From Psammoneis japonica (Eukaryota), in NCBI GenBank assembly GCA_008632985.1, contig QPGO01000072.1, positions 1 to 64,000 on the forward strand: DNA of 64,000 nt, read 5' to 3'. Shown piece after piece: positions 1-40,446 of the stretch. The notes beneath the pieces are model-generated. The model ran no database searches, had not been told where the DNA came from, and saw only the letters and a program-made list of their open reading frames with translations. The translations under genes and the position numbers were made by a program. Each line of letters begins with the position of its first letter. The stretch's first letter is position 1.

Positions 1-1456
1 CCAGCCTTAATCAATCGGCGGATATCATTGCAGCGACCGACAAAAAATGCAGTAGGATTTGAAACACATTGCAGACAACAATCATGTCACACCACAGCAT
101 TTAGTAGTTTGCTTTTTCGAGGAGGTTCCACCGAAGTGGATCAAGAGGAGGAATACGATGAGAGTGAAGAAGAGAGTGAATTGCTTGATATTGATGAAAA
201 CGAGGAGGAAGAAGAGGAACTTGACGACGAAGATGAGGAGGAGAATCCGCTCGACAGTGTCATGCCCTCAAAACCCATCAAGGTTACCGTCAAGACCAAC
301 ATGGGATCGGCCATGGTGGATGCTTCGATGGAACTTGACGTGTCGCCTTCACGTACGATCGCAGACGTGAAAAAATCGCTATCGAGACGCATGACGGGAC
401 GACCACCGATACACGTGCAACGACTCGTCAAGGACGGTCGGGTATTGGACGATGATGTGTTGGTGAATGAATTAATTGATCACGAAGAAGAAGAAGAAGA
501 GGATGATGAAGAAGAGGAGGATGACTCACTGACACTCACGCTGGATATTATACCACCCGTCGATCCCAAATTTGGTGTCGATCTCAGCATGAATCACGTA
601 CTCAACGACATGACCACGGGCGAACTTCTCAAAGCCTACGCCACCAATGCAGCCGCCATGTATCGAAATTCACAACTTTTATCCAATGACAATAAGGATG
701 AACAAGATACAAGTACTACTCTTGAATCGGTACGATTGCGACAAGAAGCACACATGATCCAAGAGCAATTGCTGACGGGTGTCGACGAATCCATTGTCTC
801 GGCCTTGGACGAACCACCCCAATCCAAACAACAAGCGTATTTGCAACGTCGTGGGCAACGGACACGACTCGTCGGTGGACGTGGTGGTGCCAAGCAAAGT
901 GTAAAACGAACCTTGCAAAAGAATCTCAATATTGTGAGTAACAGTAGTTTGCGCATGCTCTTGTTGTGTGCATACCTCCGTATCGGAGTGCTTGATTTTT
1001 TGCCTGCAATGATTTTTATTCAAGGCTCACGTTTTCTAATCTCTCTACTCTTGCTTTCGTCAGAATTGGGCCGACACACTCCGCAACGTTGTCTTGTTTT
1101 TCTTTTTTGGTTTCTTTGGTGGCCGCAGTACCATTTCGCGCAACTTGCTCTTTTTGGGAGCACCGCTCTGCTTTTTGCTGCAAGCACGAGCCGTCAAAAT
1201 GTACACCAAGCTTGGATTTTATCTTTTAAAGGATCCACCAAGTGTGTTTTTATCGCTTCTTCCGGCACCACCGCAAGCTATACTGAGTTTTGATCCAGAC
1301 AAGGCTCGTGTTGCCATTTACGGAGAATCAACAACAACAACAGAAGAGGAATCTACTCCACAAGAGGAGGATGAGGAGGACGACGTGGATGACGAGTATA
1401 GCGAGGATGAGACAGAAGAAGACGAGACAGATGAATATGGTGAATACGATTATTAG
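1..1456 (+). CDS. Ubiquitin-like-domain membrane protein with acidic tracts (5'-partial; exons <1..933, 1064..1456)
   Basis: Frame open from base 1. UBL-like segment (PSRTIADVKKSL...HVQRLVKDGRVLDDD). GTGAGT donor at 934 and CAG acceptor at 1061-1063 join in frame to ORF 1094..1456, which has hydrophobic helices and an acidic tail. Confidence 0.7.
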
Positions 1457-1945
1457 TTATTAGTGATCCATTGCTTGTTTTCCTTTTCTTCAAACTTGTT
1501 CCAGCATAGCTGTTGTTGTTCGTCAATGCTCAGTGCGACATGTCTACAATGCATTGTCGACATCAACTGTGAGGGCTGATGCCGCCAAAGCCTGAGCTGG
1601 GGCCACCATGCCTCTGCAACATAAAATCAAATAAACAGAGCCCGAACCAGGGCTACCTGGGTTGTGAGAGATGCACGCCGGGCAAAGCAGGAGACTGAAC
1701 GCCAGTCTCGTCGCCGTGGCAACCGGTCCCCACTGTTCAACCAGCACTGATGGGAAACCATCCCCACACCATTTTGTCTGAAGTGAGCACATGCCAAGGC
1801 ACACTGCTCCACACTGCCATGTTCAGCACCTGCCATGCATGCTGAAAACAAGATGAATCACAAGCGTCAAGATGAATCACAAGCGCCACACCATTTCAGC
1901 TGTGGCAATTCTCATTGTGAGTTCTCTTTTGTGTGATGTTGTGCA

Positions 1946-1969
1946 ACACACACACACACACACACACAC
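1946..1969. repeat. (CA)n microsatellite
   Basis: acacacac... run seen directly. Confidence 0.9.
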
Positions 1970-2940
1970 GCAAAACCCAGCACTCTTTCTGCAGCTGACC
2001 CCTGAGCATTCTTTGCAACAACGAGTGGTGGCCATGCATGTTGTTTGTGTCAACACCACAGCACCCTTGCCCTTGTGTCTCAAACCCGGTGTGTTGCAAG
2101 AGCATCTGTGTGTCACCACTCTGGTGGAGATTGCACATCATCGCCTGCTTGCTGACCAACACACATCTGCTCAACCATGCCACCAGAGTGTGCTTGGCCA
2201 GAGCAGGAAAAGCAGCTCTTGCTTTTCACTCAATTGCACTTTTGTTGCTCCCAGACCTCTTGCAAGAGCTGAGATGAGCTTGGCATCATGTGAAGTTGCA
2301 TGCAGGACTCACCCAATCTCATGTGCATGCTCCATCCACACAAACACACCCAGCGCCAGCACAAGAGTTGGAATGCGGAGCTTCAGACTGTGGTGGTCAA
2401 ACATTTTTGACAGCATCAACACTTCTGACCAGTCTTGACAATTGTTTGAAAGAGATTTGTGTCACTTTTTTCAAGGCAAACTGCATGTGTCAATGACACA
2501 AAATGGACCTTGCAATGGCACTGCTGCTTGCACCGCTTTTTTGCTTGTTGTTGCTGGGATCATCTGTTGGTGCCTCTCCTTCTTCATGTCACATTCTTGC
2601 CACTCTTTTTCTTTGACACATTCATTTTCTTTTGCGCTTGCAGAGCAAATGATTTGACCCTGTGTGCACAGCCTTGAGAGGCAACATCAGCTGACAAATT
2701 TGCAATGGGGCGCACTTGCCCCACCCCTCAGTCATGGCAGCCAGAAGCATTTCTTCTTTCCTCAACAATTGGAGCGGGTCTGTTGCATGTCATGTTGGCT
2801 GTGATGGCAAACCCCCACAACCAAAGCAAAAATTTAAAACATCAAGCCACAAGTCTGTGACACAGAGGTGGTCCATCTGCCAACTCTCATCTGTTTTGTG
2901 TTTGTTGTGCATCAAAGGTTGCACGTGCACCAAATGTTTG

Positions 2941-3216
2941 TGACAGAAATTGAAGGCAAATGGCAAGAATTCAAACAATGACTCCTCACTGCTGTCTAAA
3001 TGGCAGATGAGTCTCCGCTCAGAGACCGTCACAGGAGCCGAAAGACGTGTGAGTCGGTGCAATCGGGCTGCTGTTGTTATTCTTGTGAGCCTTGTGGCTC
3101 GAAAGCAAACTGCATCGCGCGCGAACGTGCGGAACTAAAGCACACAAAACTGTGCGCGGTAAACTAAACAGTGCACGACATTTCGCGTGCACCCAAATCC
3201 TGTTCAAATCCTGTCA
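2941..3216 (-). repeat. 3' LTR of the Copia element
   Basis: 276-bp direct repeat of 8057-8333 with TG...CA termini. Confidence 0.97.
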
Positions 3217-6200
3217 CTCCCCAGTTTGCTTGAGGAGTCACAGAAACAGATTCGACTTCGGATGGAATGAAGTTCCAGAACATGAGGGGGCGGAGAAGGT
3301 CCCCAGATTTGGGAGCAACCCCAATGCTTGCTGAGAATGTCAGCAGGGTTGCGGGAGCCTTCGATGAAGTGGAACTCTGGGCAACCAGACGCAATTGCCT
3401 CACGCACACGGTGGAACGACAGTGCGGTGTGTCGCTTGTGTAACTTGGAGTGCGGGATGGTGGCACTGTCTACAACCGACTTGTTGTCACCGAACATGCA
3501 ACTGACATTGTGGATCGGGACGCCAAGGCAGCGCAGGGTGATGCGCAGGTCAACAATCTGCTCGACACAAGTCCTTGCGGCAACAAATTCAGACCCGCAG
3601 GTCGCAGTCTCCACAGTGGCTTGCTTCTTAGAGAACCAATCAGCCGGGAATTTGTTGAGGAAGTGGAGCATTCCCATGACAGAGCATCCGGTGAGCATGC
3701 AATGGCACAAGTTTGCATCGACGTAGTGGGTGGCAGTGACGAACTTGCCAAGGGGTGGTGGAGCGTCCTTTGGGATCATCTCTTCTGCTTCGCTGTACAC
3801 GGAATGCATCCATTCACAGGCCGGAGCAGGGAGATCCAAACAGCCGGGCTCTTCCGTACGAACGCGGAGAGCGCCGTGTCACATCTTGGAGAGGCAACCA
3901 CAGACGCGTTTGGCACGGTCCAAGTGACCTTGACGGGGCGCAGCTCGGAAGCTAGAGAGTGACATGACGGCCGTGGTGATGTCAATTCGACCAAGGGACA
4001 CTGCCCACTGGAGTGAACCAACAAGAGACTGGAACTTGTGAATGCCATCGGGCCCCAGCAGTTTGGAAGTGTCCAGTTCGGGGTGGTCACCCTTCTCCAG
4101 AGGTGACAGGGCGTTGGTGGCAGGTTTCTCCCCAAACAGTCGGGTGCAGCTGTCAACCATGCGCTCGATGCACTTGCGCGGAGACAGGCACAAGGTTCCG
4201 TCGGGATCCCGGGAAAAGTCACAACCCAGATGGAACTCAATGGGTCCCGCACCCTTGAGCTTGAACTTGCACTTTTCCGTGAGAGCATCGACGAAAGATT
4301 GAGGGTCCTTCATGGCAATGGCGAGGTCATCCACACAAACGGCAATGTGTTCACAGTGGTCGCCGTTCCTGCGCATCCAAATGTCGGGTTCAGCGCGGCA
4401 GGGGAAGAATCCTTCAGCTCGCAGGCAGTCGGCGAAGCGCTCGTGCCAGCGGAGACCAGAGCTGCGCAGTCCATGCAGGGCCTTGTGGATGACAAGGATG
4501 TGTCCTTCGAGTTTGCCAAATTCGGGTCCGGCTGCAATGTAGAGCTTCTCCTTGGTGGTGGCTTCAAGGCAGGCATTGCCAATGTCGGTGGCCCATGTCT
4601 CTAACTCGTTGAGTTCGGCCAGGAAAATCATCAGCCGAAGGCCACGGAGGGAGACTGCTCCGGAGTGGACACTGTCGATGGGTGCGTCCGTGAGGTGCCC
4701 ATCGGCTACGAGTCGTGCCTTGTGGCGACCGTCGTGTTTCACGTCGTGCACCAGGTGCACTCGGATCTTCTTGTGTCCCGCAGGAGGAGTGGAAGACTCG
4801 AAGGGCCCGCAGTCATGGAAGACTTCGCACTCCTCGAGTTGGTCCATCTCGAGGTTAGTTGCGTCTCCCCATTTGCGGTTGCCGTTGCGTTCGTCTGGTG
4901 ACATGGCGTGTTTGCAGTTCCGGGGAACTTTGCATCCGCACTTGCAGCGAGGTGCAGTGCAGAAGGAGTGAAGCTTGGCTTGGTTGGCCATGCGAAACAG
5001 CTTCTTTTGGCGCCTCGCGATGGTGCGGAACCGCTTCCAGCCATCAGTGTCTAGGAGTCCGTTCTCTCGTGCACAGATGGCACAGGTGACGGGGTCATCC
5101 TTGGCGATGATGGCAAGAGGCTCGGACGTGATCTCCCCACTTTCCCATTCAAGCATGATGTTGTAGCTTGAGCCTTTCCAGGTTGGGTCATGAGGCTTCA
5201 GAGGTCCTTCGTGTGACACGATGCGTCGAAATTTCCAAACAGCAGTGTCTTCGTCTTCTTGCTCAATGTGATTCATGATGTCGTTGCAGGCAAGGACTTC
5301 CTCGTGTTCGTCGTTGTTGACAGAGCAGACGAACTTGGTGAGCTCGGGATTGCCGTTCACTTTCCATTCGTGGTCTTCGATGGCCTTGACGATGCGAGCT
5401 CTGTGGCGTTGTCCGTCCTCTTGTGGCTGCATGAGGAATGTGCGTCCAATGATGTCTTGCGGATCAAAAACTGGCATCTTGGGTGTCCTGATCTCCCCAT
5501 CAGGAGAATCGACGGGGTTGTCGTCATGGCGGGATTTGATGATGGGTTCAGGTGGCTCCCCATCAGGAGGATCAAGACGCAGGTTTTGAACGGCAGGATC
5601 GGTGGCAGCGGAGCGTACGTTGGACCGGCAGAGGATCTTCTGAGTCTCGTCAGAGAGAATCTTGAAGGTCATCTGGTGGCCGACGTGCTCAGCAATGCCA
5701 ACAAAGCGTCCGCACAACTCACGGGATTCGGACGGCCAATCGGAGTCATCGAGGTGGAAGCACACGGGTTCCCACCAGTGAAAGCGAAGCAATGGGCTGA
5801 TGTCCGGGGTGGAGCCAGTGAGAGTTTCGAGGGGCATGCGCCAGTGGAGACGTGGGGATGCTGCATGGTTGAGTGTGAAGCACACATGCATGAGCACCAG
5901 CAGCCATGTGTGGGCAGGCGAACCAAAACGATCCATGACAGTGTTCACCATGCGCTTCACGAATGTCGCTGTCAATGTCATAGAACACATCGTCGGACGG
6001 TTCCTCGGAGCAGACGTCGTGTGCGCACATGGCGCGTCGGGGAGCTCGAGGTGTCGTCTTGGGTTGAAACGCACTGTCGTTTTGAGCTGCCGCGGAGAGG
6101 AGCAAGCCACAGTGTTGATCGCATGTGAGGCTCTTGCCACTCTGCGCACGATGCTGATGAGCTTGGTTCTTGACAGCACGGAGTTCCTCGACAGGGTGCA

Positions 6201-7149
6201 CGGCATTCTCGAGCATGACGCGCTTCTGTCCTTCAGAGAAGTGGTCACTGGCCGGGATGAGTGCCTCGCACTTGCGCAACTGATCTTGCCAATGAAGGAT
6301 GAACCCGTGGGTCGGACCTTTCCAAGTGCCATCACCAAGACGTGCGGTGGTGAGGTGCGTGAGCAAGGTGGAGGACTCGATGGATGCGCGGGCAGAGGCG
6401 AGCGCACACTCAGACAAGGCGTGGCAGACGGTCTGGGAGTCAGAAGACCCCACATTTTCGCGAATGAGAGCCTTGCCCTTGTCGGTGAGAAGAATGCGTT
6501 CGAAGACGGCGAACATGCACTTTTGCTGTTCAGCAAAGAGCAGTTTGTCTTCGGGGCTGGTCGGTTTGTACGACGAGTCTAGAATGCACTTGATGTCTTG
6601 GGCACGGGCTTGTGCCACAAGTGAGGTGTGCCAAGTGTGCCACTGCTTGTCGGATTTGAGAGCCGTGAAAGCGGTGGGGTCACGCTTGATGCCTCGCTTG
6701 AAGTCTCGCACCGGGTTGCATGCCTTGGTCCGGTTGGTGACATGCGGAGGTGCGAGGGGTGAGCTGCTGACGGACACAGAAGACATGCAGTCGGGGCTGA
6801 GGCGGCAGGCAAGGAACTCGTCATGTGTGAACAACGAGGAGTCATTGGCAACGTCAAGACCTTTGTGTGCTTTGACAATGTGCAGACCAATTGGAGCTGC
6901 CAACATGTTCTTGTGACCGCGGGGCAAAGGGATCACATTGGTGCCGTTGTCGCACTCAAGCGAGTCGATTTGGGATGGCATGAACGTGAACAGTTCTTGA
7001 CACGAGTCCGTGCCGTCTTGGGTCAAAGCCAAACGAAGAGGGCTCCCAGCACCTTGGGCAAGCACGGTTCCAACAACGTGCTCGAAACCATCGGTTTGTT
7101 GCTGACGAGTGAGAACCATGGTGGACAAAAGTGGTGTCAGGACAAGCAA
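3204..7149 (-). pseudogene. Copia gag-pol remnant (gag ~7149-5962; integrase tail and RT ~5961-3882; RNase H ~3878-3300)
   Basis: Motifs VRDFKRGIKRD (gag); DVKHDGRHKARLVADGH, TDIGNA[C]L and AV[C]VDD (RT); YVDANL, GSEFVAAR, GDNKSVV and NPADILSKHW (RNase H). In-frame TGA at 3879-3881, probably from CGA. Protease and integrase core are missing. Confidence 0.93.
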
Positions 7150-8041
7150 TTCTTGTTGGGAAGCAAAGGTAGACTTGAAACTTGGGTGAGAACAGACTTG
7201 ACTTGAAATGGACTTGACTTGAAATCTTGAACTGCCTTGAAATCAGAAGTCGCCGGGCTGTGCCATCCCGTTCGTTGTCAAGTGCTAAACTTCCCATCCG
7301 GTCCGTAGAGTTGTGCCGGCACATCCGAACCTGCAGCCAGCGGCGCTTTGGGTTGCTTGTGAGCAGAGTGGTGGGTTGTAAACCCCTGCAGGTGAGCTGA
7401 CCAGAGGTGGACAAGACCCCCGAACCGTTCTTGTTTTACATCGGTTGGATTTCCCAATCAGGCTGGCCAGTTGACGCAGGCGTTGGGCGCTGTGGACGAA
7501 CGAACAAACTCGGGAAAACACCCTCGCCCCAACGCAGGCTGCAGTCATGGCTGCTTGCTCTCACAGTCGTCCTCGTGGACCCAGCAGAACTGCAGAGCAC
7601 CAGCAGTCCGGGGTGGATCAGGTGCAATGGACTCGGCGTGCTTGTAGAGTGGCAGCAAAGCCGCAGTCCAAAGGGTGGGTTCAATTCCTTGGCCGTGAAG
7701 ACATGCACATGCACATGTCTTCAGCGACGGAGATCCTTGAACATGTGGGGTTCTTGACCGTTAACCGTTGGGTGGGTGTGTCAAGGGATGAGGATCAAGG
7801 ACAGACTTGGGTGTGACCGTTGAATGCATGTCTTCAGCGATCAAAGGCAGCACAATCAATCCAGATGTCCAGCGGCAAGGAAACTTGACGGTGGCGTTAA
7901 CTTCCTGCCGATGCCCTGGCATTGAATGCGCGCAGACTTGCCGATGCACGCAGAACATGTGCGGAGGTCCACGCAGAATTGAGATGGCGTCGTCGGTGAA
8001 TCAACGACGACGATGGCGGTTGCTCAATGGGTTGACAATGA

Positions 8042-8056
8042 GCAAGACTGTTAATC
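8042..8056 (-). other. Putative primer-binding site complementary to a tRNA-Asn(GUU) anticodon arm
   Basis: Plus strand gcaagactGTTaatc abuts the 5' LTR and has the layout of an anticodon stem-loop (CAAGA-CT-GTT-AA-TC). Confidence 0.55.
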
Positions 8057-8333
8057 TGACAGAAAATTGAAGGCAAATGGCAAGAATTCAAACAACAACT
8101 CCTCACTGCTGTCTAAATGGCAGATGAGTCTCCGCTCAGAGACCGTTGCAGGAGCCGAAAGACGTGCAAGTCGGCACAATCGGGCTGCTGTCATTGTTCT
8201 TGTGAGCCTTGTGGCTCGAAAGCAAACTGCATCGCACGCGAACGCGCAGAACTGAAGCACACAAAACTGTGCGCGGCAAACTAAACAGCGCGCGACATTT
8301 CGCGCGCACCTAAATCCTGTTCAAATCCTGTCA
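8057..8333 (-). repeat. 5' LTR of the Copia element
   Basis: 277-bp direct repeat of 2941-3216. Confidence 0.97.
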
Positions 8334-9723
8334 GTTTGTGGGCGGACCACTCTGCGTTTTGGAGAAATGTTGAAACAAAATTGACACTGCAAAAAATCTC
8401 ATTTAAATGCCTCTGTAATTCCAGGACAAACAAGGAGATGACCCCCCTAAAAACTCAAAATTTCTCATGCCTCTTGTGTCCACGATTTAGCCGAGCCAGC
8501 TGCAGCGCTTGCTCTTGGTTTTCACGCTGGCATCAGAGTGCTTTTCATCATTTTGGTGCCATTGCTTCATCAAATTGGCTGCACCCAATGCACAGAGCAG
8601 ACTAAAAGAGATGTTGCAAGCAGCGAAAGACATTTGCACCAGCTTGCGATGTCGTGCCGGTGTTTGCATTTTTTCCACAGCAGGCATCATGGAGCACACG
8701 GAGCAAACCTCGGCGAGGAGTGTTTGATGCATGTGGGGCTGAGCACTTCAGCCCCTCATGCAAAGAAACAGAGAGATGACAGCAGCATGAGGAATGTCTT
8801 CAGCCAGCTGCTGGCTGAAGAATCCTGCACACTGCAAGGGTGCCGGTAGATAGAATCGAATCACCTCATGTCATGTTCAATGTCCGTCCGTCAATCAGTG
8901 CTGAAAGAGTCTGTCAATCAGTGCGTTTGGGAGGTTTTGGCCGCAAGCTGAAAGTGCCGTACACTAGAGTGACAGATTGCGCTGTTTGCTATTTGCTGTT
9001 GCGTTCGCCACGTCACGCGCGCGTCACGCCGATGACGTCAAAGGCAAACTGCGTGACGTAGGATAGTCAATTGCTTTCATAGATCCGGGTTACAGGCATC
9101 GCTGATCTAATCGAAATCGCGCAGCGCGCACATCTAGTGTTTATTGTTTTTCGTATTATTTCCGCGAGCATTGTATTGCTAATGAATAAAAATAATATTA
9201 TTTCCTATTTGACAGTAAATACAGTGTTTATTATTTTCATAAATAAAATCCGCGAGGCATGAAGACACGCCGGACATTTTCTTACGTATGTTGCTGACAT
9301 CAGCTTTGCTGTGTTAATTAAGCATTCGACGCCCAACGAGGCCATGTCAGGCAGTTCTGACGCACGCCTACCCAGAAAGACCTCTGTGACGTCATTGTGC
9401 TCAATGTTCGAATAAAAGTTACCCAAATGAAGTTGTCACCTTTCTTCGCCGACATTGTCTAAGCAACAAGTGATCGTCCGGCATGATAAATAATAAACAC
9501 TAGATCGGCGACCCCTGTATCAATTGCGTTCATCCCCGATTTGGCCCGATTTAGCAAACTGCTCCTCCCCGTAGAAGTGTGCGTATTTTTTGCACCAGTT
9601 TGCTGTTTGCTTCGCTGCACTTTGAGATTCCTTCGAGGTGCGCCATCGTCTCTCGTCTGAAAAACACCACACTCGCCTCTCGCCTGCCTGCAGCACAAGG
9701 ACATCAAAGTGCTTCTATCAACC

Positions 9724-10931
9724 ATGAGTGACGGCATGCGTTCGAATGCCAGTGCACCAGCTGCACAGCGTCATTTGGTCGATGGCGGTGTGCTGGCATC
9801 AATCGGGAATCAACCCGCCGCCCCCGCTCGGCCGAATGCCGCTGCTGCTCCTCGCAAAGCACAGCGATTCCCAAACACGGACAAGCTTGTCTCAGACGGC
9901 AGACATGAGGAGGTGAGTTTTCTGGCGTTGCTCTTCTCTGCTTTGCACATCATTTTTTCGGTTTCTTGCCACTTTGATCTCATCTTTTTTTCCCCCAACT
10001 TGTCTGCAGTTGCTTTCCGACATGCTTGCGATTGTCGAACAGTGCGATGCTTGCAGCGCTGTTGCACCCGATGCCAAGGATCCGCAGAATCCTTGGCACA
10101 AAGTGGGCCGTCTGTTGCATGCAGATGGCAATGGCATTGCAACGAAGCATGGGTTGCAGGCATCAAAAACTGCGAATCGCGTTGCTTTGACGAAACGCAA
10201 GTTCGTGATGGAGAAAGGCATTCTGCCGCGCCTCGCAAAGAAGCATGAGGACGAGTTTTCTCAGAAGAACTTCGGGGATGCAGACAACGAAAAAAGGGGA
10301 CATGTGCTTTGGGAGAAATGCCGAGACAGTGAAAAGAAATCCCAAGAAGGCAAGGATGAAGAACATGCCAGGAAAGTCCAACAAGAGCACACGGACGAAG
10401 CGAACGAGGAGCGTTGGAACCTCAACCCCCCCGGTGCTGTGAACTCGACTGGTTTGCAGTTCAGTGACCAAGTCATGCGCAACATCAATTTCACCGGCTC
10501 GGCTGCTTCTAAGTCGCCTGTTGTCAGAGATCCAGAGAGCGGCCCATTCGCTGCCACCAGCAACAAGAAGCACAAGAGTGACCCTGCTCCACCTTCTGTG
10601 GCCCGAGCATCTGCGCCTGGATCAGAAACGTCTCCATTGGATGTTGATGGGGAGCAAACAAAAAGCTTCAAAGATCAGGTGCAAGAAGAACCACGGGGCA
10701 TTGACGAATGTGCATGACAACTCTGCCTGCATCAACGACTCGTTTGAGAGGACTGTGGAACTCCTTGCCTCCCAGAACAATGCCATGGAGGAGTCTGTGA
10801 AACACAAGCGCAGCGCCACAATGCTTTCCTCCCTTCGCGAGGCTCGCAAAGATGCTCTGGACCGTGGAGATGATGTTGACTGTGAGAGGCATGACCGGGA
10901 AAATCAAGGAACTGGAGAACACATGGTGTGA
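9724..10931 (+). pseudogene. Harbinger accessory (putative DNA-binding) protein, degenerate
   Basis: ATG at 9724; intron 9913-10009 (GTGAGT...TGCAG) joins in frame to ORF 9974..10717; frame break near 10715. Convergent with the transposase inside the TIRs. Function is inferred from position only. Confidence 0.6.
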
Positions 10932-11153
10932 CATGGGCGGCAACTAGGTGGAGCATGATTCGGGGGCAGCAATGAGACTCCAGAGTGGCAGCCACAAAGC
11001 ACTGTGCAGGTGCACATCTACAAACCTGCCTGCAGTGCATGTGTGCACAGGTGTCAATTCCAGACAGTGTGGTCAGGCTCGATGCATTCACACGACACAT
11101 CATGTCAGATCTGTCATGTCAAAACTAAAGTGGAATCTATTTTGTTCTAAAAA

Positions 11154-12752
11154 TCACAAAATTTGTCCAGCTGGCAAGCAGTCTTCTAGCTCTGGGGCAT
11201 GCAAGCCAAGTCCATTTCCTGTTTGGGATCCATTCACGCACGTGTGGACATTGTGGAGAAGAAGACCTGCACGCAGCTGCGCAAGGACAAAATCGTGGTC
11301 TTGTTCGAGCTTGAATTGTTCCTTGCGATTCACCAAGGCGCAGATGTTGACCTCACCCGCGCATCCCCACTCCACAGATTGACGGCATTGCTTCATCACC
11401 CCATTTTCTTGAACTTGACAAAGAGGAAGAACAGGAACTAATCTCGTGGGCTCGTGTCCAGTGCAAATGCAGTGCCAGACACCTTTGAAGGCTGAGTCTC
11501 CGTAAAAAGCACACACCTTTCCTTGAAGTTCCGGGCACGCCTCTTGAACAACACAAAGGAAAGTGTCAATTTCACTCCTTGTGAGCGCTCCACTGTCGTG
11601 ACTGGAGAAACACGGAATGGCAAGAACATTTTAGACATGTGATGCGACGCAGCAGAACAATGTTGGAACTCGGATGCACTCACGGTTTGGATGACATGGG
11701 CCCACAAGCGTGCGCATGAACTCCATTTGGAAGGAACAAATTGAACATCTTGAGAGCATGCTTTTTAGACTTCCCAGTGTGCACACAACGTTGAGCCTCA
11801 TCATGTCCCGGGCGATGCATGCTTCCCTCGTAGTCTCCATCAGGGCCCGTTCGTGGTGTTGCAACTGCACAGTCTTTGCAATCGGCAGAGCCGCATGCCA
11901 CAAAAGAGCCGGGTGCAAAGTGAACTCCAGGACAAAAATGTTCCTCTTCCGTCTCGGGGTCAATCAACGTGACATCTCTTCCAACTTCCTGACAAATCGC
12001 CTCCACAAAATCTGGAAAGTGTGGCATCCACAGTCGCAGACCGTGTGGTCCAAGCAGACATCCATGTCTCGAATCAAAATGCCGCACGAAATGCTTGAAA
12101 CCATGTGACCATTTCATCGCTTCCCCAGAGATGCCATTGTTGGCTAACTCTTTGTGTGTCTCCCCTCGCTTGTGCTTGATTGGTGAACAGATCAGCAAGT
12201 TCTCGCGATGAAAATGCAAGTGGCCTTGGTTCCCAGGACGGGGCACACGAACAATGACTGGAAGATCCAGCAGATCCAACATTTCTTGGAGCTCAACCTT
12301 GGAAAACGTGGTAAAATCATTTGCCTCACTGTCATCTTGGAAGCTGTCAATTCTTGTGAATCGACAGATTTCCTTGTACGGAGTGGTTTCGAGTTCATGG
12401 TCTTGCAGGTCTCCGACCTCTGCATCAACCTGCACCGCGTTGTGGAAATGCAGCATGCACGTTCGACATGAGCCTGTGCACAATTGCAGGCAAACGTCTG
12501 CTTGAGCAATTTGGGGAGACATTTCCATGTCATTTTTGGATAAGGAGCTGCGACCTTTGTGCAACCAACATGATCGTGGAGTTTAGATGCTCTTGCGCGT
12601 TCTCCAGAGCACACATGGCCGCCGACATTGCTTCTCGACAAAGAAGTTGATCGTCGACATTAACTCCAAATGTCTTTCTCCTTTTCTGTGTTGTCCATCG
12701 TGTGGGCTTGCGACGTCTCTTACCCGTAAAGGGATTGATAAGCATCGCCATT
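11154..12752 (-). pseudogene. Harbinger-type DDE transposase (DDE_Tnp_4-like), hypermutated
   Basis: Motifs ADCK, AQRCVHTGKSKKHALK..FLPNG...CGP, FYGDSAF, RQSVEWG and LLHNVHTCVNGSQ. Intron 11602-11683 joins ORFs 11680..12564 and 11154..11516 in frame. N-terminal frame break near 12540. Confidence 0.85.
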
Positions 12753-13111
12753 GCGGCTCGACGAGACTGGAACAAGAAACAGAATGAGATGCGAGAAATG
12801 GCGCGCCACATTCATGTCGAAAAGAAGGAATCTAAAAACGAGCGTCTGATTAAAATGACTAAAGTTTGATCGAACGAAAGGAACAGGTCGCGAATTGAGA
12901 AATCGCAAAAAACAAAATTCCATTTTGTGACGTCGGCGCTTCAACTAGGGCTAAAAAAATCGAAGCCAACAGTGAATAGCAAATAGCAAACAGGCGCAAT
13001 CTGCAATCTGTCACTCTACTGTGTATCATGGTACAACAACAAACTGAAGAGAAAAAAGACGACCGTTTGGGCTTACCATGTAGTGAGAGTAATACCGTAG
13101 AACAGTAAGGT

Positions 13112-13672: not shown

Positions 13673-14279
13673 ATGAGTAAAGTACTATCTATTTTGTGTT
13701 TTGATCGCCGCTGATTACGAGAAGGAGCATCACATATAGTTAGTCATTGATTTTGCGATTGCGCGTGATGTGTTCAGCAATTGTGCAGCAAATCATTTGT
13801 GCCAGGCGTATTAGGAACAGATGCATGGCCAGTAAGAAAAGTCAGTTCAGGAATATTTTCAGGACTGACACCAGCCAGTTTCATATCCAAGTCGCGGTTA
13901 AGCAACTAGCTCCTTCATCATCAAGCAAGGCGGTGTCAAAGAAATGCCCTTCCCGCAAATCTGAAAGAAGCACAACCAAACAGACAACATACCGTGCTCC
14001 TGTTTCATGGGCAACCAGACAAGAACTTTCAGTTCATGACACTCACGGATGGATCCAAACCAAAGGTTGATGACAGTCCTCAACTTCCGAAACGCCCGTT
14101 TCCTGAGGTCCAACGCAACCAAAATAATTTCCACCCAGACACAGAGAATGAATTAATGGCCACGATGGGTTCCTGCTGTCTCCTTCATTCAAATCCTGAT
14201 GCTTTGATTTCATTAAACACATCATTCTCAATCAACAGCAACTTATTTAGAGACTCAAAATCAACAGTCGAGAATTCTG

Positions 14280-14385
14280 CTCAACAAGAGGAGGAGGATG
14301 AAATGATGAATAGCGAGGACGATACAGAAGATGAAACAGATGAATATGGTGAATACGATTATTAGTTATTTGTGATCCATTGCTT
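14280..14385 (+). repeat. Diverged duplicate of the 3' end of the first gene (~1355-1476)
   Basis: Shared acagatgaatatggtgaatacgattattagttatt(a/t)gtgatccattgctt; both frames end DETDEYGEYDY*. Confidence 0.9.
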
Positions 14386-35389: not shown

Positions 35390-35730
35390 TGTTGATTTCC
35401 TTTCACGTGACTACTTTTTTCTTTCTGAATTATGAGGTGATATTTTGAAACATGATTGTTATCGCGCAAACAAGGTTCGGGGTTCGGGTTCGGATGGAAC
35501 TCAACATCGATTTGAGTTCCGGGTCCGTTGCTTGTGACGATTCAACATGAACAGGAGCTGCTTGTCATTGACTTCTCTACTTTCTACTTGAAAGGATCAA
35601 AAGCTTGGCCATATCACCGACTGCAGTACATACCTTTCTCTTAGAAGAGAGCCGTTCTTCGTTCTCTTCTCCCATCTCGTTCATGGTGCAAGTTGCAAAG
35701 TGGCGGGTGGCGGGTGGCAATCGGCAAAAT

Positions 35731-38700
35731 TTTTGGAACAGAAAGAGCACGCGCGCCTGGACGAGAGCAAGAAAGTGATAACGGTTGATGGCGAATCCAG
35801 TCCGGAATCCGCGACCAAGGAAGCTGAAGAGACAGATCAGGGAGGAAACGGCACTAAAGATGATGAGTCACGAACGGAGCCACAGTTGGGAACGAGAAGG
35901 AGAACGAGAATGAGAACATTCTTGACATTGGGCTTTGGTGAGGGAAAGAGTGAAAGAGTTGTGCGAGGAGATCAGCTCCTCGTTGTCTGAGACAGACCCA
36001 GCCATTGACTGAGCACTCGTCAGAGTGCACTGGATCTTTTCAAAGGGGTCTTGTGATTTCACAAATCCAAGCCCTGGAAGCAGAGGCAGTTGTTCCAACA
36101 CATGGTTGTTTCAGAAATGCCACAACCATGGGAGAGAAAACAGTGGTGGTTGGGCAGACCCACCCAACAACCCACCTGCAAGGATGGCACCAAAGCCGGG
36201 TGACGGGTGAAATGGTCAGCAGCTGGACCAAGCCATTCAAGAACAAGAGTGGATTCAAGAAAGGGCCACAAAAGAACCAGACTGCGTTTAAAGGATGTGT
36301 GAAGGAACTGTGTGACTTTGCACATGACAAGACAGGCAGCACACAGCACAGCAACAAGATCCTGAGGCCGCTGCAAAAATGACACAAGAAGATTGTGTGC
36401 GCCACATGGGCCAGCTTTTTGACCCAGGCAACTGTGTGAAAGTGACAACAGAGCAGCTGGAAGAGCTGACCTCAGCAGCAAAAGGACGCTCCACCAACCA
36501 AAGACTCAAGTGGAAATGTGTTAATCAAACACCAGCCAGGCCTGGGGGCAGAAGAAGAGATCAACGACCACATGAGCTGGGTGCTGTGGTTGCTTGAAGC
36601 ACTGCAGAAAACAAGTCAAATGCTCCACACAGGATGTCAAGCAGGTGCAATTTGCCAGAACAATCCTGAAAACAGCTTGCAGGTCAAGCAAAAGGCAATT
36701 CATGGTGCAATCTGCAACAAAGATGGGCCAGCAGCAAGAACTGCCTGATCATGGTGCAGGATGTGGCAGTGGCCAAGGATGTCTTCAGTCAAGACATGGG
36801 ATCCATCAAGGGCAAGACAGTGAACAAACAGTCTCCCTGAGTCAAGGCATTGACAGCTGACATGCCTGCCCCAGTTGCAGTGCAATGTTGTTGATCCATC
36901 ATGCTCTCCTGTCCTCCAACATGATGAAGATCAATGGGCTGCCAACTGCTGCTGAGACATTGGCATTGTGCCATTTGGCACAATCAAGTGCACATTCAAC
37001 CAGAAGATCAAAACACTGCTTCAAAGCACCAGTCAAACACAGAAGGCCTGCAAGACACATGGATTTGTTGCAACTGCACAGTGCATGTTAACAGCCAACT
37101 TGAGCAGATGCCCGAACAGCTGAGATGGGACACAACCTCAATGCCATTTCACTGGAAGAGCCTGCGGCAGAAATTGAGAGACATGCTTGTCCTGTCAAGA
37201 ACTGCATGTGCTTGCAATGCCCCATGCTGCAATTTTGAAACTTTCCATGCTGGCTGACCACCGAGGTGGCAAACTGGGCCATGTTTTGGCCAAACTGCTT
37301 CACGGCCAAAGAGGTGGCATCTCTGAGTGGTGACATCCACACACCCTTGCAACCAGCCTCCAAATTGTGCACAACAAACATTGCCCTCTTGAGTTTGGAG
37401 AACATGCAGCACAGACCCACAAAGCACACGACAATGCCACAGTGAGCCACACCATCAGTGCCACCGCCCTGCATGGCCAACTGGAAATGCCCAGGGGGAC
37501 ACTTCTCATGAGCCTTGAGACAGGGTGCTGCATCAACCACAATCACAATGCATGGACTGTGCTCCCAATGCCCAACACCATGATTAACCAGGTGCGTGGC
37601 ATTTTGCAAAATGTGACAAGGCCTCCAAAGGCATTGGTTTGTCCATGGTTGGAGCAGGAATCCTGTTGCCAACAAAATTTCTGAAAGCTCTCAAAAAGAT
37701 GAAATGGCTGACATTGATGACAGGAATGACAGCAGCTGTGAGCCTGACAACAGCTCCCTGTTTGAGTTTGTGGGTCAGACATTGATGATGCCACCCCACC
37801 ACTGAACAACTTCAACACAATGCCAAGACCCTGGATGAACCAGCACAACAAATGCATCACAAAATGGTCTTCATGCAGGGGCAAATGCTGGACCGAACAA
37901 AGATCCTCAAACTGCAGGAGTGGACAGGGAACCACTGGAAACCAAGGAGAGGACCAAGACACTGCCAAAGCTGCCAAAGCTGCAGAAGTGGAGCAGGAGC
38001 CAACCAACAATCATGGTCAAAGAACAATGGACAATGCCAGGGACCAAGCAACAGCTGATGCCAGTGCCAATGCTGAGCCAGACAACCAAGCAAGATCTCA
38101 AACCAAAAAGGAACATGCACAAGAAATGCAGTGAATTGACTGGAGTGTGTGACCTGCACCAACAAAAGCCCAGGTCACATGACCACCTGCACCTTGCCAT
38201 GCTCAATGATGTTGACTGCACCCAATGCCCCATGAAAAAAGGGCACAAAAAAAAACTGGCACAAAGGGTGAACAGGCAGTGATGGAAGAAGTGGAGGAAC
38301 AGCTTTTGAAGTGATGGAGATCCTCAAGCCAATCAGCATCAACATGCCAACTGGGCACAACAACAAAAGAAGAAAGCACTGCAATGCTCATGTTCCTCAA
38401 ACAAAAACAATGTGACCATGTCTCAAGGGATGTGGTGCAATGATGGTTGACCTCAGAAGATCCGCGCAGCAAAAGAGGACATGTCATTGCCTGCTGCATG
38501 CATGGAATCCATTCTGCTGTCATGTGTCATCATCACAAAGAAAGGACAAGCAAGATGTTGCAAGCACAAACCTTTCTCATTTCTCAATGCAAACAGATGA
38601 GAAATGTGCAAAGTGCATGGCACATGAGACAAGTGGCAAAACAATGCCACATGTCAAACTGCTGAAGGTGCTCTGTGGAATGGCTGTGGTGCACTGCTGG

Positions 38701-40122
38701 TGTGTGGAAGGAGGAGCTGGCGGGGATCTCAAAAGTTGGGGAGTCAAAGTGAGCCCATGCAACATGTGCATGGCAAACAAGACCATCAATGGAGAGTGAG
38801 CAACACACCATCTTTTGGCACATGGGCCCATGGATGACTTGAAAACATTGCATGTGAAATGCAAGGTGGTTGCTTGATCAAATCATCAAGAAGTGACCAG
38901 AGAAGGTGCGCGCAAAACATTTTGGGTCAATGATTGCTTGGGGGACCTTCACAAGCACCTTGGGATGACTGTCAACTGCAGCTTTAAAGGGAAGGTCAAG
39001 CAGAGCATGTTTCACCAGCACATTGACAAGCTTGCTGACTTGCTGCCAAAGGACATGGACAGGAAAAGCCCAGCTCCAGTGGCAGCCAAGCTGCCTCCTG
39101 TTTGACACAAATGAGAAGGATCTGGGATGTCAAACACAAGAGGAACAAAAAATCTTCCATTCTGTGGTGACAAAGTCACTTTTCTTGTTGCTTCAAATGA
39201 CAAGGCTGGACATGCAGATGGTGGCATCCTTCCTGTGTGCCCAGGCTCAGGACACTGGGGCTGATGACAAAACATCATGATCTGCGATTGACCAAGGGCC
39301 TGCCACTCACACTGATTGCAGATGAGCTGGACATGACAACCAAGCATGTGCTGGTGGATTGGCACTTTTTGCACAGCCCACCCCAGCATGCAACACATTT
39401 AGCTTGACCAAGAGTGAGCTTGTTGTGTTGGGGTCCATGATGGCGCACGTCAAGAACTCTGCCATCATGGAGAGAAGGAATTTTGTGGAGGGTCAGGTGT
39501 TCAAAAGCTGGGAGAACAAGCTCTGCCAGCAGGACAATCAGTGCCATTCTGTTGGAGAAGAATGATCAGATGCTCAGCAGCACAAAAGGATCAAACACAT
39601 CAGAGTGCAGCATTTTTTCTTGACCGACCACATCAGATGCTCAGCAGCACAAAAGGATCAAACACATCAGAGTCGTGCAGCATTTTTCTTGACTGACCAT
39701 GCTCTGAAGGGTGGCGACCTGACCGCTGGACATTGTCCAACCGAGATTGGCTTGCAGGCTACTTCACAAAGGCACTTCAAGGACTCCTGTTCATCAAGTT
39801 TTAAAACCAAATCATGAATGTGGCGGGAAACACCCCAATTGATGACCTCAGCCATTGCAGGAGAGTGTGTTGGAGCAGAAGAGTGTGCACCTGGAGAGCA
39901 AGAAAGTGATGGGTCCACAACTGAGGAAGCTGAAGAGACAGATCAGGGAGGAAATGACAATGAAGATGACATGATGAATGGAACTGCAACTGGAAATGAG
40001 AAGAAGGAGATGAAAGTGAGAATGTTCTTGCATGTTGGCAAGGGGAAAGAGTTGAGTGACATTGGCTCATTCCAAGATGATTGTTGGTTCTAACAGCCAT
40101 CAGAACCCGCTGGATCTTTTCA
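35731..40122 (+). mobile_element. Old, heavily degenerate Ty1/Copia (CoDi-like) LTR retrotransposon
   Basis: Diverged LTRs ~35731-36042 and 39868-40122, both ending TGGATCTTTTCA. PPT-like GCAGGAGAG before the 3' LTR. Remnants of integrase (AEIERH; KHCPLEFGEH...WTVLPMP), RT (VKLLKVLCG, PCNMCMANKTING, MDDLK, KHLGMT) and RNase H (KHIRVQHFFLTD, HCPTE). No TSD found. Confidence 0.88.
39564..39700 (+). repeat. ~67-bp tandem duplication inside the RNase H remnant
   Basis: atcagatgctcagcagcacaaaaggatcaaacacatcagagt...gcagcatttttt occurs twice in succession. Confidence 0.85.
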
Positions 40123-40446
40123 TTGTTTTTTATTTTATAAATCCATGCCCCAGAAGTAGAGACAGCAGTTGTTCAACAAAAACAGTGATGGAATTGATGA
40201 GTCATTTCCTTCAGAACCTGGCATGATGTACGGAAGAGGAAATAAGAGAGCGAGAGTTCGTGCATTCAGACGTTTTTTTGAGTTTTATCCTCGCACCCGT
40301 TATGGGCGGCGTAGTTTGCCTGATTGCTGCCATCTATATCAATGTTCAAGTCGGGTAGTTCACCTCAGTACCAACGTGATTCAACAGGCTCATTCAACAC
40401 AAGAGGAAAGATATATGGATCTTGTGTTGGCAATCTAGAATATAAG

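What the first reader, a model, noticed from the sequence alone, without database searches (positions are those of the whole stretch)
8057..8333. LTR pair indicates the mutations arose after insertion, independently and on both strands
Seen: aligning 2941-3216 with 8057-8333 by eye gives one 1-bp indel and 15 differing dinucleotide sites, all within the TA/TG/CA/CG set. Five are reciprocal TG vs CA (aacaaTGact/aacaaCAact, cgtCAcag/cgtTGcag). Four are TA vs TG or CA (aacTAaag/aacTGaag, cggTAaac/cggCAaac). Six are CG vs TG or CA. There are no transversions. Known: LTRs are identical at integration. Inference: the insertion is young (TSD intact, no background substitutions) yet heavily mutated at TpA, so the process is fast and acts on chromosomal DNA rather than by RNA editing or RT error. 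LTR-divergence dating would badly overestimate TE ages in this genome.
Basis: partly seen in the sequence, partly recalled or inferred. Interest (0 to 1): 0.85.

Follow-up and report, generated by a model that had tools for sequence, protein, structure and literature searches.

The report
TpA hypermutation of diatom transposons
A copia retrotransposon in a diatom genome had most of its TA dinucleotides turned into TG or CA after it inserted, the DNA-level hypermutation so far reported in only one unrelated alga, and this makes LTR-based dating of such elements far too old.

Summary
The two LTRs (2941-3216, 8057-8333; 5-bp target duplication GTTTG) differ by one indel and 20 substitutions at 15 dinucleotide sites. 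All 20 are transitions inside pyrimidine-purine (YpR) dinucleotides, and none of the 132 other aligned positions differs.

The element is a Ty1/copia retrotransposon on the minus strand of a diatom genome. TA observed/expected is 0.13, against about 0.6 in the genes. Of 26 conserved pol tyrosines, 3 remain; 16 are Cys and 4 His (TAY to TGY or CAY), while 394 of 419 other conserved residues are kept. Contigs of other family copies show TAT/TAC at two of these codons, so the direction is TA to TG/CA. They also show CG where this copy has TG/CA at 12 sites, so a slower CpG decay runs alongside.

A Harbinger DNA-transposon remnant in the same TA-poor block is also tyrosine-depleted. Two environmental copies of another copia family show the same pattern, including 20 reciprocal TG/CA sites that fit independent TA loss.

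The signature matches the TpA-only A/T-to-G/C hypermutation shown by mutation accumulation in Bigelowiella natans (2026 preprint). I read this as a new member of that kind, in a diatom, acting on transposons and close to saturation. The enzyme is not identified.

The parts
2936..2940 (.). Target-site duplication GTTTG, left copy
   Evidence: A paralogous empty site with a single GTTTG appears, table 5c.
2941..3216 (-). LTR (the 3' LTR in the element's sense), 276 nt, TGACAG...CTGTCA
   Evidence: family D8; 92.4% identity to the other LTR.
3217..3227 (-). Purine-rich tract (reads ...ctggggag on the minus strand) abutting the 3' LTR; polypurine-tract-like
   Evidence: Read directly. Its function is inferred.
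3303..5960 (-). pol (integrase C-terminal part, RVT_2 reverse transcriptase, RNase H region). It has one in-frame TGA at 3879-3881 and its tyrosine codons are converted to Cys/His codons.
   Evidence: tblastn gives a single HSP at about 60% identity to homologues. Pfam RVT_2 6e-23. Tyrosine test. Stop codon.
4335..4337 (-). Tyr codon of the reverse-transcriptase Y-V-D-D motif (motif name recalled), now TGT (Cys). Other family copies read TAT at 0.83 of depth.
   Evidence: residue 748, homologue consensus Y 97%.
4170..4172 (-). Conserved Tyr codon now TGC (Cys). Other family copies read TAC at 0.90 of depth.
   Evidence: residue 803.
4959..4970 (-). Two Arg codons hit by CpG decay: CGC to CAC (His, 4968-4970) and CGC to TGC (Cys, 4959-4961). 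Other copies read CGC at 0.98 and 0.93 of depth.
   Evidence: residues 537 and 540.
5746..7242 (-). Upstream open frame (gag-like region), Tyr 0.4%, no Pfam hit
8057..8333 (-). LTR (the 5' LTR in the element's sense), 277 nt
8334..8338 (.). Target-site duplication GTTTG, right copy
1501..12800 (.). TA-poor block that holds the copia and older repeats. TA o/e is 0.03-0.23 in ten of the eleven 1-kb windows from 2001 to 13000; 9001-10000 is above 0.43.
11683..12582 (-). Remnant of a PIF/Harbinger-type DNA transposase, Tyr 0.67%
   Evidence: 212 homologues, best E 4.6e-48. (DDE_Tnp_4 in 7 of 7 top hits tested)..
35701..40300 (.). Second TA-poor block, unidentified. TA o/e 0.02-0.05, CG o/e 0.09-0.15, CA+TG 1.8-2.0.
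   Evidence: No Pfam hit in the 9 of its ORFs tested.

Best explanation
A Ty1/copia retrotransposon inserted into an older repeat of a diatom chromosome. Afterwards it was hit, as chromosomal DNA, by a process that turns 5'-TA-3' into TG or CA, an A-to-G change on one strand or the other. The process is confined to transposon DNA and runs at least about 100 times faster per site than background substitution. About three quarters of the TA sites in each LTR, and about nine tenths of the tyrosine codons, have been converted. A slower CG-to-TG/CA decay runs alongside; this is the usual fate of methylated CpG. Each LTR was hit independently, so an ancestral TA now often reads TG in one LTR and CA in the other.

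Shown here: the spectrum, the TA-to-TG/CA direction in the coding part, the symmetry between strands, the restriction to transposon DNA within this window, and the same signature in a DNA transposon and in environmental relatives.

Inferred: that the chemistry is enzymatic deamination of adenine at TpA, by an ADAT2/TadA-like enzyme as proposed for Bigelowiella natans, and that the process serves as a defence against mobile DNA.
For: (1) LTR pair: 20 of 20 differences are YpR transitions and 0 of 132 other positions differ. Genic tandem repeats in the same window give 51, 54 and 90 for YpR transitions, other transitions and transversions.

(2) Composition: TA o/e is 0.13 in the element against 0.47 for the whole window and 0.4-0.7 in genic 2-kb windows, with CA 1.49 and TG 1.39. 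The pol DNA of 50 related metagenome loci has median TA o/e 0.67 (range 0.16-1.2), against 0.11 here.

(3) Polarity: of 26 Tyr columns conserved in 55 homologues, 3 are kept, 16 are Cys, 4 His, 2 Phe and 1 Trp, while 394 of 419 other conserved columns are kept (the same result with 40 and 120 homologues). Tyr content is 0.22% against 1.73-5.56% in 120 homologues.

(4) Family contigs (classified): others read TAT or TAC at two conserved Tyr codons (shares 0.83 and 0.90) and CTA at a conserved Leu codon where this copy has CCA (0.90).

(5) Both strands: products of palindromic contexts number 107 (sense A to G) against 113 (sense T to C). Cys or His outcome follows local context.

(6) No RNA stage is needed: the Harbinger DNA-transposase remnant at 11683-12582 has Tyr 0.67% against a mean of 4.62% (minimum 2.57%) in 44 homologues, and 0 of 6 conserved Tyr are kept.

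(7) Independent data: metagenome loci L029 (0 of 11 conserved Tyr kept; 6 Cys, 5 His), L035 (1 of 10) and L021 (9 of 14), and database proteins P0082 and P0096.

(8) L029 and L035 are two copies of one family. They differ by 73 YpR transitions, 14 other transitions and 12 transversions. Column counts are TA/TA 5, TA against TG or CA 25, reciprocal TG/CA 20, CG against TG or CA 8, CG/CG 97. Independent TA loss with p = 0.75 per copy predicts 4.4, 26.3 and 19.7 for the first three. CG-derived reciprocals would number about 0.1. The same model predicts 1, 6 and 4.5 for the LTR pair, against 2, 4 and 5 observed (my arithmetic).

(9) Precedent: in B. natans mutation-accumulation lines, 230 of 231 new mutations in integrated viral regions are A to G or T to C, all at TpA (preprint 10.64898/2026.01.13.699255; Results and Discussion read).
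Against: The ancestral state of the 15 LTR sites was not observed. Only 40 of 438 variant places were shown, and only one pair of them (2987/2988) lies in an LTR.

At two places (3858, 4602) this copy has TA while 0.96-0.98 of family depth has TG or CA, which is the opposite polarity if the depth-weighted majority is ancestral. At five adjacent pairs the family majority carries the other product (for example window CA against others TG at 0.87, 4286/87). So either partly mutated copies kept amplifying, or the majority is not ancestral.

Depth shares are not copy numbers. All four runs are one sample and may be the assembly's own source.

Among the 40 places, CpG decay in this copy (12 single sites) outnumbers TA loss (7), so some reciprocal LTR sites could derive from CG.

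Two Tyr-to-Phe changes and one Tyr-to-Trp change are not explained by TA to TG/CA.

Nothing in the window bears on the enzyme, on base modification or on what marks the target. Adenine-targeted and thymine-targeted chemistry cannot be told apart, because TpA is a palindrome.
Confidence: 0.78

Rival explanations
1. Ordinary decay of methylated CpG alone. All TG/CA states, including the five reciprocal sites, descend from CG, and TA is derived or irrelevant.
For: Family contigs show CG where this copy has TG/CA at 12 single sites, 11 of them at a share of 0.93 or more. Two Arg codons became His and Cys. Phaeodactylum LTR retrotransposons are reported as methylated, with preliminary bisulfite data (not shown there) pointing to a CpG context (PMC2806351, passages). 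Six LTR sites are CG against TG/CA.
Against: It cannot remove TA (o/e 0.13) or turn 20 of 26 conserved Tyr into Cys or His. CG o/e in the element is still 0.85 and 16 CG/CG columns remain in the LTRs, giving a per-copy CG loss of about 0.16 and about 0.3 expected reciprocal sites against 5 observed (my arithmetic). Related loci that are CG-depleted (L027 0.05, L048 0.11) keep normal TA, so the two decays are separable.
Confidence: 0.06
2. Editing of the element's RNA (ADAR- or TAD-like A to I), or reverse-transcriptase error before integration, inherited through rounds of retrotransposition.
For: A to G with a 5' U is the ADAR preference (as stated in the preprint's Discussion). Cys outnumbers His 16 to 4 at Tyr codons, which is a sense-strand excess.
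Against: Both LTRs are copied from one template, yet they differ at 15 sites with an intact target duplication. Sense-strand T-to-C products are as common as A-to-G products in strand-symmetric contexts (113 against 107). The Cys/His ratio tracks the neighbouring base. A DNA transposon shows the same loss.
Confidence: 0.03
3. Sequencing or assembly artefact. Heavily modified bases at TpA or CpG in silenced DNA are miscalled as transitions by a long-read base-caller, so the real DNA still has TA.
For: The platform of the assembly and of runs X1-X4 is not on record. Only 0.53 of the sampled words of the stretch are held by the best run.
Against: The same Tyr-to-Cys/His signature is in metagenome contigs from at least two other sources (L029 and L035; L021) and in two database proteins. 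In run X1, 2585 contig pieces are 99% or more alike to this copy, and the flank-junction pieces have 0 differences. A random miscall would not leave 394 of 419 other conserved residues intact while hitting only TA and CG.
Confidence: 0.04
4. Untargeted, genome-wide hypermutability of TpA in this species, with selection preserving TA in genes. Transposons merely show the neutral outcome.
For: Background TA o/e in the window is lowish (0.4-0.7).
Against: The borders of the TA-poor blocks are sharp, and adjoining intergenic DNA is TA-rich (for example 40120-40400; TA-free gaps). Genic tandem repeats diverge with an ordinary spectrum. In B. natans the process is region-specific by direct measurement.
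Confidence: 0.05
5. Same phenomenon, different chemistry. Thymine at TpA in silenced DNA is modified (5-hydroxymethyluracil or base-J-like; recalled from dinoflagellates and kinetoplastids) and mispairs with G, giving T to C, rather than adenine being deaminated.
For: TpA is a palindrome, so T-targeted and A-targeted events give identical sequence outcomes. Only transitions are seen.
Against: No evidence for such bases in diatoms was found or sought here. The only experimental precedent proposes adenine deamination, itself unproven.
Confidence: 0.12

Closest known systems
TpA-specific A/T-to-G/C hypermutation of integrated viral DNA in Bigelowiella natans (Mettrop et al., bioRxiv 10.64898/2026.01.13.699255; abstract, Results and Discussion read)
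   Same: The outcome is the same: only TpA to TpG or CpA, on both strands, in chromosomal DNA, confined to foreign DNA, orders of magnitude above background and GC-enriching. That paper also finds TpA-poor, CpA+TpG-rich clusters and low-TpA coding sequences enriched in DDE-endonuclease and reverse-transcriptase domains. Seven of the 64 1-kb windows here pass its two cut-offs.
   Different: The host is a diatom (stramenopile), not a chlorarachniophyte (Rhizaria). The paper has 0 occurrences of 'diatom', 'stramenopile', 'LTR' or 'retrotransposon'. The targets here are a very high-copy copia family and a Harbinger transposon, not a single-copy giant-virus insert. The depletion is far deeper (TA o/e 0.02-0.13 against 0.45). 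CpG decay co-occurs here. The evidence here is comparative, not from mutation-accumulation lines.
Repeat-induced point mutation (RIP) of fungi
   Same: It is a DNA-level burst of transitions only, specific to a dinucleotide context, on both strands of mobile or repeated DNA, much faster than background, and it inactivates elements after insertion.
   Different: RIP is C to T, mostly at CpA, and so creates TpA, raises AT content and makes stop codons (recalled; C-to-T nature also in the abstract of PMC7296669, search listing). Here TpA is destroyed, GC rises (56% against about 47-50%), and no TAA or TAG can arise: pol keeps 1 stop in 1093 codons. Genic tandem repeats are spared.
5-methylcytosine deamination at CpG in methylated transposons
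   Same: It accounts for the CG-to-TG/CA component (12 polarised sites). Phaeodactylum LTR elements are reported as methylated (PMC2806351, passages).
   Different: It does not touch TA. It is slower here than the TA process (per-copy loss about 0.16 against about 0.75 in the LTRs; my arithmetic).
ADAR and APOBEC3 hyperediting of retroelements
   Same: Deaminase-type transition clusters with a neighbouring-base preference; ADAR favours a 5' U (stated in the preprint's Discussion).
   Different: These act on RNA or on nascent cDNA before integration and mark one strand, which leaves the two LTRs identical. Here the LTRs differ, both strands are hit equally, and a DNA transposon is hit too.
Ty1/copia LTR retrotransposons of diatoms (CoDi lineages, PMC2806351)
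   Same: For the element itself: TG...CA LTRs, 5-bp target duplication, RVT_2 reverse transcriptase, and 55-69% protein identity to many marine and freshwater metagenome copia elements.
   Different: This copy is dead: Tyr codons are lost, there is one in-frame stop, and other copies diverge from it at 5961/5962 (table 7). Assignment to a named CoDi lineage was not tested.

Membership tests
Ty1/copia LTR retrotransposon | Direct LTRs ending TG...CA, flanked by a 5-bp target-site duplication | tested here: met
   TGACAG...CTGTCA, with GTTTG on both sides.
Ty1/copia LTR retrotransposon | Copia-type reverse transcriptase (Pfam RVT_2) | tested here: met
   PF07727, E 6e-23, 82 bits (cut-off 31.6).
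Ty1/copia LTR retrotransposon | Integrase encoded upstream of reverse transcriptase | tested here: inconclusive
   Homologues align over query residues 207-560, upstream of RVT_2, but Pfam reported no integrase domain. Other family copies diverge from this one at 5961/5962 (table 7).
TpA hypermutation of foreign DNA (Bigelowiella type) | Changes are A to G or T to C at TpA, giving TpG or CpA | tested here: met
   Tyr to Cys or His at 20 of 26 conserved codons. Others read TAT/TAC/CTA at three polarised codons. TA o/e is 0.13 with CA and TG enriched.
TpA hypermutation of foreign DNA (Bigelowiella type) | Acts on integrated chromosomal DNA, on both strands | tested here: met
   The LTRs of one insertion differ at 15 YpR sites. 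Strand-symmetric products number 107 against 113. A DNA transposon is hit as well. That LTRs are identical at integration is established knowledge, not tested here.
TpA hypermutation of foreign DNA (Bigelowiella type) | Confined to foreign or mobile DNA; host genes spared | tested here: met
   Within this one window only.
TpA hypermutation of foreign DNA (Bigelowiella type) | New mutations observed in real time at about 1000 times the background rate | not testable with these tools
   Only a bound is available: per-copy TA loss of about 0.75 against under 1.2% at other sites (my arithmetic).
TpA hypermutation of foreign DNA (Bigelowiella type) | Candidate ADAT2-like adenine deaminase in the host | not tested
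   No genome is held for this window. No deaminase domain was found among the 18 window ORFs scanned.
Fungal RIP | C to T at CpA (or CpG), creating TpA and raising AT content | tested here: not met
   TpA is depleted, not enriched, and element GC is 56%. Tyr codons are lost rather than stop codons gained.
CpG methylation decay | CG ancestral, TG/CA derived | tested here: met
   12 single sites, 11 of them with a family share of 0.93 or more. Arg to His and Arg to Cys.
CpG methylation decay | Cytosine methylation of the element | not testable with these tools
   No methylation data were available. Phaeodactylum precedent only.
RNA-stage editing (ADAR/APOBEC type) | One-strand changes fixed before integration, LTRs identical | tested here: not met

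The most novel reading that the evidence does not exclude
TpA-to-TpG/CpA hypermutation is a shared, enzyme-driven genome defence of distant algal lineages (Rhizaria and stramenopiles), either ancestral or spread by gene transfer. In diatoms it would be the main route by which transposons of both classes are killed. It would saturate an element before a single background substitution accrues, leave open reading frames intact because it cannot create TAA or TAG, and systematically falsify transposon age estimates and annotation in diatom genomes.
Probability: 0.35. Interest if true: 0.85.

Novelty: new member of a known kind. Interest (0 to 1): 0.7.

Why it matters
1. The only report of this mutational process that my searches found is one 2026 preprint on one chlorarachniophyte. 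Finding the same signature in a diatom, in both an LTR retrotransposon and a DNA transposon, and in environmental contigs, would show it is neither a curiosity of one species nor restricted to viral inserts.

2. The LTR pair is a natural before-and-after experiment. It places the process after integration, on DNA and on both strands, which complements the mutation-accumulation evidence.

3. There is a practical consequence. LTR divergence here is 7.25% (Kimura two-parameter distance 0.078), yet non-target sites show none. Diatom transposon dating by LTR or consensus identity, as used for example in bioRxiv 10.1101/2025.10.24.684338 (passages read), would overestimate ages wherever this process acts.

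4. Hypermutated elements keep long open frames and lose tyrosine, which can mislead gene prediction and homology searches. The word-based search missed all homologues of the Harbinger remnant, whereas HMMER found 212.

5. Several diatoms can be transformed (recalled), so the enzyme and the targeting signal become testable.

Tried and rejected
- Dinoflagellate origin: I tested it with a recalled spliced-leader fragment. One 1-mismatch match turned up against 0.67 expected, which is uninformative. Named homologues of the triose-phosphate transporter are diatoms.
- Sequencing runs: no RNA holder is listed, so nothing can be said on expression.
- Pfam on 20 ORFs of the TA-poor blocks: no family at E up to 0.05. 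Pfam on the Harbinger region at E up to 10: nothing meaningful.
- LTR-pair controls from related metagenome loci: the 7 terminal repeats found are mostly 100%-identical contig-end overlaps. Only L001 (6 differences) and L008 (4) vary, which is too few.
- The diverged direct repeat at 35.8 and 39.9 kb as a second LTR pair: the alignment is too gappy to score.
- Earlier notes of this scan: none by place, by words or by sequence.
- Literature: searches found no report for diatoms. One search found the Bigelowiella preprint and one search found nothing further.
- RIP in the classical direction was considered and rejected on composition and on the tyrosine test.
- UV photoproducts were considered and rejected by reasoning, because no change occurs at dipyrimidines outside YpR.

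Full report
**What is at the coordinates.** The two stretches are the LTRs of one element. 2941-3216 (276 nt) and 8057-8333 (277 nt) both begin TGACAG and end CTGTCA, and both are flanked by GTTTG (2936-2940 and 8334-8338). A contig from a sequencing run joins 2919 to 8352 across letters that hold a single GTTTG. This is a paralogous copy of the flanking repeat without the insertion (tables 5 and 5c).

Between the LTRs, on the minus strand, lies a copia-type pol. Pfam RVT_2 scores 6e-23. A single tblastn HSP at about 60% identity to homologues runs from 5960 down to 3303. A purine-rich tract abuts the LTR at 3217, so the element reads on the minus strand.

The host is a diatom. The window's triose-phosphate transporter is 79-87% identical to proteins whose named members are Cylindrotheca, Chaetoceros, Rhizosolenia, Eucampia and Cyclophora. 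The other long ORFs are ordinary, mostly intron-free eukaryotic genes.

**The observation.** There is one 1-bp indel and 20 substituted bases at 15 dinucleotide sites: five reciprocal TG/CA, four TA against TG or CA, six CG against TG or CA, and no transversions.

All 20 differences lie in pyrimidine-purine dinucleotides, which make up 52% of the aligned positions (P about 6e-5 for 15 sites). The other 132 positions carry no difference. Units of genic tandem repeats in the same window differ by 51 YpR transitions, 54 other transitions and 90 transversions. The spectrum is therefore special to the element.

**Direction of change.**
- Composition. The element is nearly free of TA (o/e 0.13; CA 1.49, TG 1.39, CG 0.85), against 0.47 for the window as a whole. 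The pol DNA of 50 related elements fetched from metagenomes has median TA o/e 0.67 (range 0.16-1.2), against 0.11 here.
- Conserved tyrosines. Of 26 tyrosine columns conserved in 55 homologues, 3 are kept, 16 are Cys, 4 His, 2 Phe and 1 Trp. Of the other conserved columns, 394 of 419 are kept (the result is the same with 40 and with 120 homologues). Tyr to Cys is TAY to TGY and Tyr to His is TAY to CAY. The tyrosine of the reverse-transcriptase Y-V-D-D motif (motif name recalled) is now Cys.
- Other copies of the family. The family is very abundant in the one sample that holds it: 11,482 contig pieces in run X1, with summed depth of 40,000-290,000 in the element against 180-1,570 in the flanks (depth is not a copy number). 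At two conserved Tyr codons the other copies read TAT and TAC at 0.83 and 0.90 of depth. At a conserved Leu codon they read CTA (0.90) where this copy has CCA.

So TA is ancestral and TG/CA derived.

**CpG decay is also real.** The call showed only 40 of the 438 variant places, and it chose them by support. Among these 40:

| Class | Places |
|---|---|
| Others CG where this copy has TG/CA (11 at share 0.93 or more) | 12 single sites |
| Others TA where this copy has TG/CA | 7 |
| This copy TA where others have TG/CA | 2 |
| This copy CG where others have CA | 1 |
| Differences that are not YpR transitions | 8 |
| Adjacent TG/CA pairs | 5 pairs (10 places) |

Two Arg codons became His and Cys.

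The element still has CG o/e 0.85, and 16 CG/CG columns remain in the LTRs. The older repeat it sits in (2001-3000) and the block at 36-40 kb have lost both TA (0.02-0.05) and CG (0.09-0.18). Related loci can be CG-poor with normal TA. The two decays are therefore separate, and TA loss is the faster one.

**Origin of the reciprocal sites.** Two environmental contigs, L029 and L035, are copies of another copia family, 94.5% identical over 1,722 bp. Both are tyrosine-depleted: 0 of 11 and 1 of 10 conserved Tyr are kept, and the rest are Cys or His. They differ by 73 YpR transitions, 14 other transitions and 12 transversions.

| Column type | L029/L035 observed | Model (p = 0.75) | LTR pair observed | Model (p = 0.75) |
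|---|---|---|---|---|
| TA/TA | 5 | 4.4 | 2 | 1 |
| TA against TG or CA | 25 | 26.3 | 4 | 6 |
| Reciprocal TG/CA | 20 | 19.7 | 5 | 4.5 |
| CG against TG or CA | 8 | not modelled | 6 | not modelled |
| CG/CG | 97 | not modelled | 16 | not modelled |

The model assumes that each copy loses TA independently with probability 0.75, with either strand equally likely. The observed CG loss would yield only about 0.1 reciprocal sites in L029/L035 and about 0.3 in the LTR pair. All of this is my arithmetic on those counts. Most of the five reciprocal LTR sites therefore most likely descend from TA, but this is a model result. The consensus at those sites was not seen.

**DNA, not RNA.**
- LTRs are copied from one template, yet these differ (established knowledge).
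- In contexts that read the same on both strands, the two products are equally common: 107 against 113.
- The 16-to-4 excess of Cys over His follows the neighbouring base. With a pyrimidine before the codon the counts are 10 Cys and 1 His; with a purine they are 5 and 4.
- The ORF at 11683-12582, in the same TA-poor block, has 212 homologues (best E 4.6e-48). The top seven tested all carry DDE_Tnp_4, so it is a PIF/Harbinger DNA-transposase remnant.
- That remnant has 0.67% Tyr, against a mean of 4.62% and a minimum of 2.57% in 44 homologues. None of its 6 conserved tyrosines is kept (3 His, 1 Leu, 1 Phe, 1 Asp), and it has excess Cys and His. A DNA transposon has no RNA or reverse-transcription stage.

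**Rate and targeting.** A per-copy TA loss of about 0.75 in the LTRs, and 23 of 26 Tyr codons lost, stand against 0 of 132 non-target differences (under 2.3% pairwise at 95%). The TA process is therefore at least about 100 times faster per site than background. This is inference from small counts.

TA-poor blocks (1501-12800 and 35701-40300) have sharp borders. Genic tandem repeats are spared. What marks the target (repetition, silencing or foreignness) is open.

Among 90 surviving TA sites in the blocks there are none in ATAC/GTAT or ATAT contexts, against 289 and 109 in the background. CTAA and TTAA are enriched about threefold. This hints at a wider sequence preference, but the original composition is unknown.

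**Comparison with what is known.**
- Six literature searches found nothing for diatoms.
- One search found a 2026 preprint, 10.64898/2026.01.13.699255. I read its abstract, Results and Discussion.
- In mutation-accumulation lines of Bigelowiella natans, 230 of 231 new mutations in an integrated giant-virus region and a virophage region are A to G or T to C. All are at TpA, at about 6e-7 per site per generation against 3.5e-10 elsewhere.
- That paper also reports low-TpA coding sequences enriched in DDE-endonuclease and reverse-transcriptase domains, and proposes an ADAT2-like adenine deaminase.
- It has 0 occurrences of 'diatom', 'stramenopile', 'LTR' or 'retrotransposon'.
- The signature here is the same. 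The host lineage, the targets (high-copy transposons of both classes), the depth of depletion and the accompanying CpG decay differ.
- Fungal RIP is the functional analogue but runs in the opposite chemical direction.

I therefore file this as a new member of a very recently described kind.

**Weak points.**
- The four runs are one sample and may be the assembly's source.
- Only 40 of 438 variant places were shown, chosen by support.
- Depth shares are not copy numbers.
- At 3858 and 4602 this copy keeps TA where nearly all other depth has TG or CA. At five adjacent pairs the majority carries the opposite product. Partly mutated copies may therefore have gone on amplifying, or the majority may not be ancestral.
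- The enzyme, any base modification and the trigger are untested.
- The supplements of the preprint (its tables of mutations and contexts) could not be seen, and they may bear on the context rule.

Noticed in passing
window 35701-40300: Second TA-poor block, also stripped of CG (TA o/e 0.02-0.05, CG 0.09-0.15, CA+TG 1.8-2.0). It is bounded by a diverged direct repeat (35818-35924 against 39924-40030, 75% identity) in which the left copy keeps CGs where the right copy has TG/CA. No Pfam family in the 9 of its ORFs tested, and the element type is unknown.
   Followed up: partly
window 1501-2940 and 8334-9000: The copia sits inside an older repeat. 2001-3000 has TA o/e 0.03 and CG 0.18. Summed contig depth at 2700-2896 is about 1,570, against about 180 at 8413-8600. 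A paralogous copy without the insertion is present in the reads.
   Followed up: partly
window 11683-12582 (-): Remnant of a PIF/Harbinger-type transposase (homologues carry DDE_Tnp_4), tyrosine-depleted. A word-based homology search found nothing, whereas full HMMER found 212 relatives. This shows how the mutation hides such genes.
   Followed up: yes
window 5961-5965: Contigs of other family copies stop matching this copy here, with loose ends on both sides in all four runs. The homologue alignment also ends near 5960. This copy probably carries an internal deletion or rearrangement that removes the protease and integrase N-terminal region.
   Followed up: no
L029, L035, L021 (metagenome loci); proteins P0082, P0096: Related copia elements in public environmental data carry the same Tyr-to-Cys/His signature to varying degrees (0 of 11, 1 of 10 and 9 of 14 conserved Tyr kept; P0082 7 of 20, with two Tyr-to-Arg changes that imply a double hit TA to CG). 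The process is therefore not limited to this assembly.
   Followed up: partly
TA-poor blocks 1501-9000, 9601-12800, 35701-40300: The 90 surviving TA sites are never in ATAC/GTAT or ATAT contexts (289 and 109 in the background) and are enriched about threefold in CTAA and TTAA. Most surviving TAs in the LTRs are in TAAA. This is a possible extended target motif.
   Followed up: partly
window 2941-8333, all six frames: Because TA is destroyed, TAA and TAG are rare (46 in total) and TGA dominates (213). Long spurious ORFs therefore open in many frames of the TA-poor blocks, which is a trap for gene callers.
   Followed up: partly
window 45436-48225, 49311-49698, 50591-50826, 59832-60846: Several genes hold long in-frame tandem repeats (units of 12-36, 78, 102 and 201-228 nt; Thr/Pro/Ala-rich or FWDRHLQ-type). 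They have normal TA content and an ordinary substitution spectrum.
   Followed up: partly
window 1332-1476 and 14256-14385: A 145-nt direct repeat (78% identity, TA-rich, ordinary differences) brackets the whole transposon island from 1.5 to 12.8 kb. It may be the 3' ends of duplicated genes.
   Followed up: no
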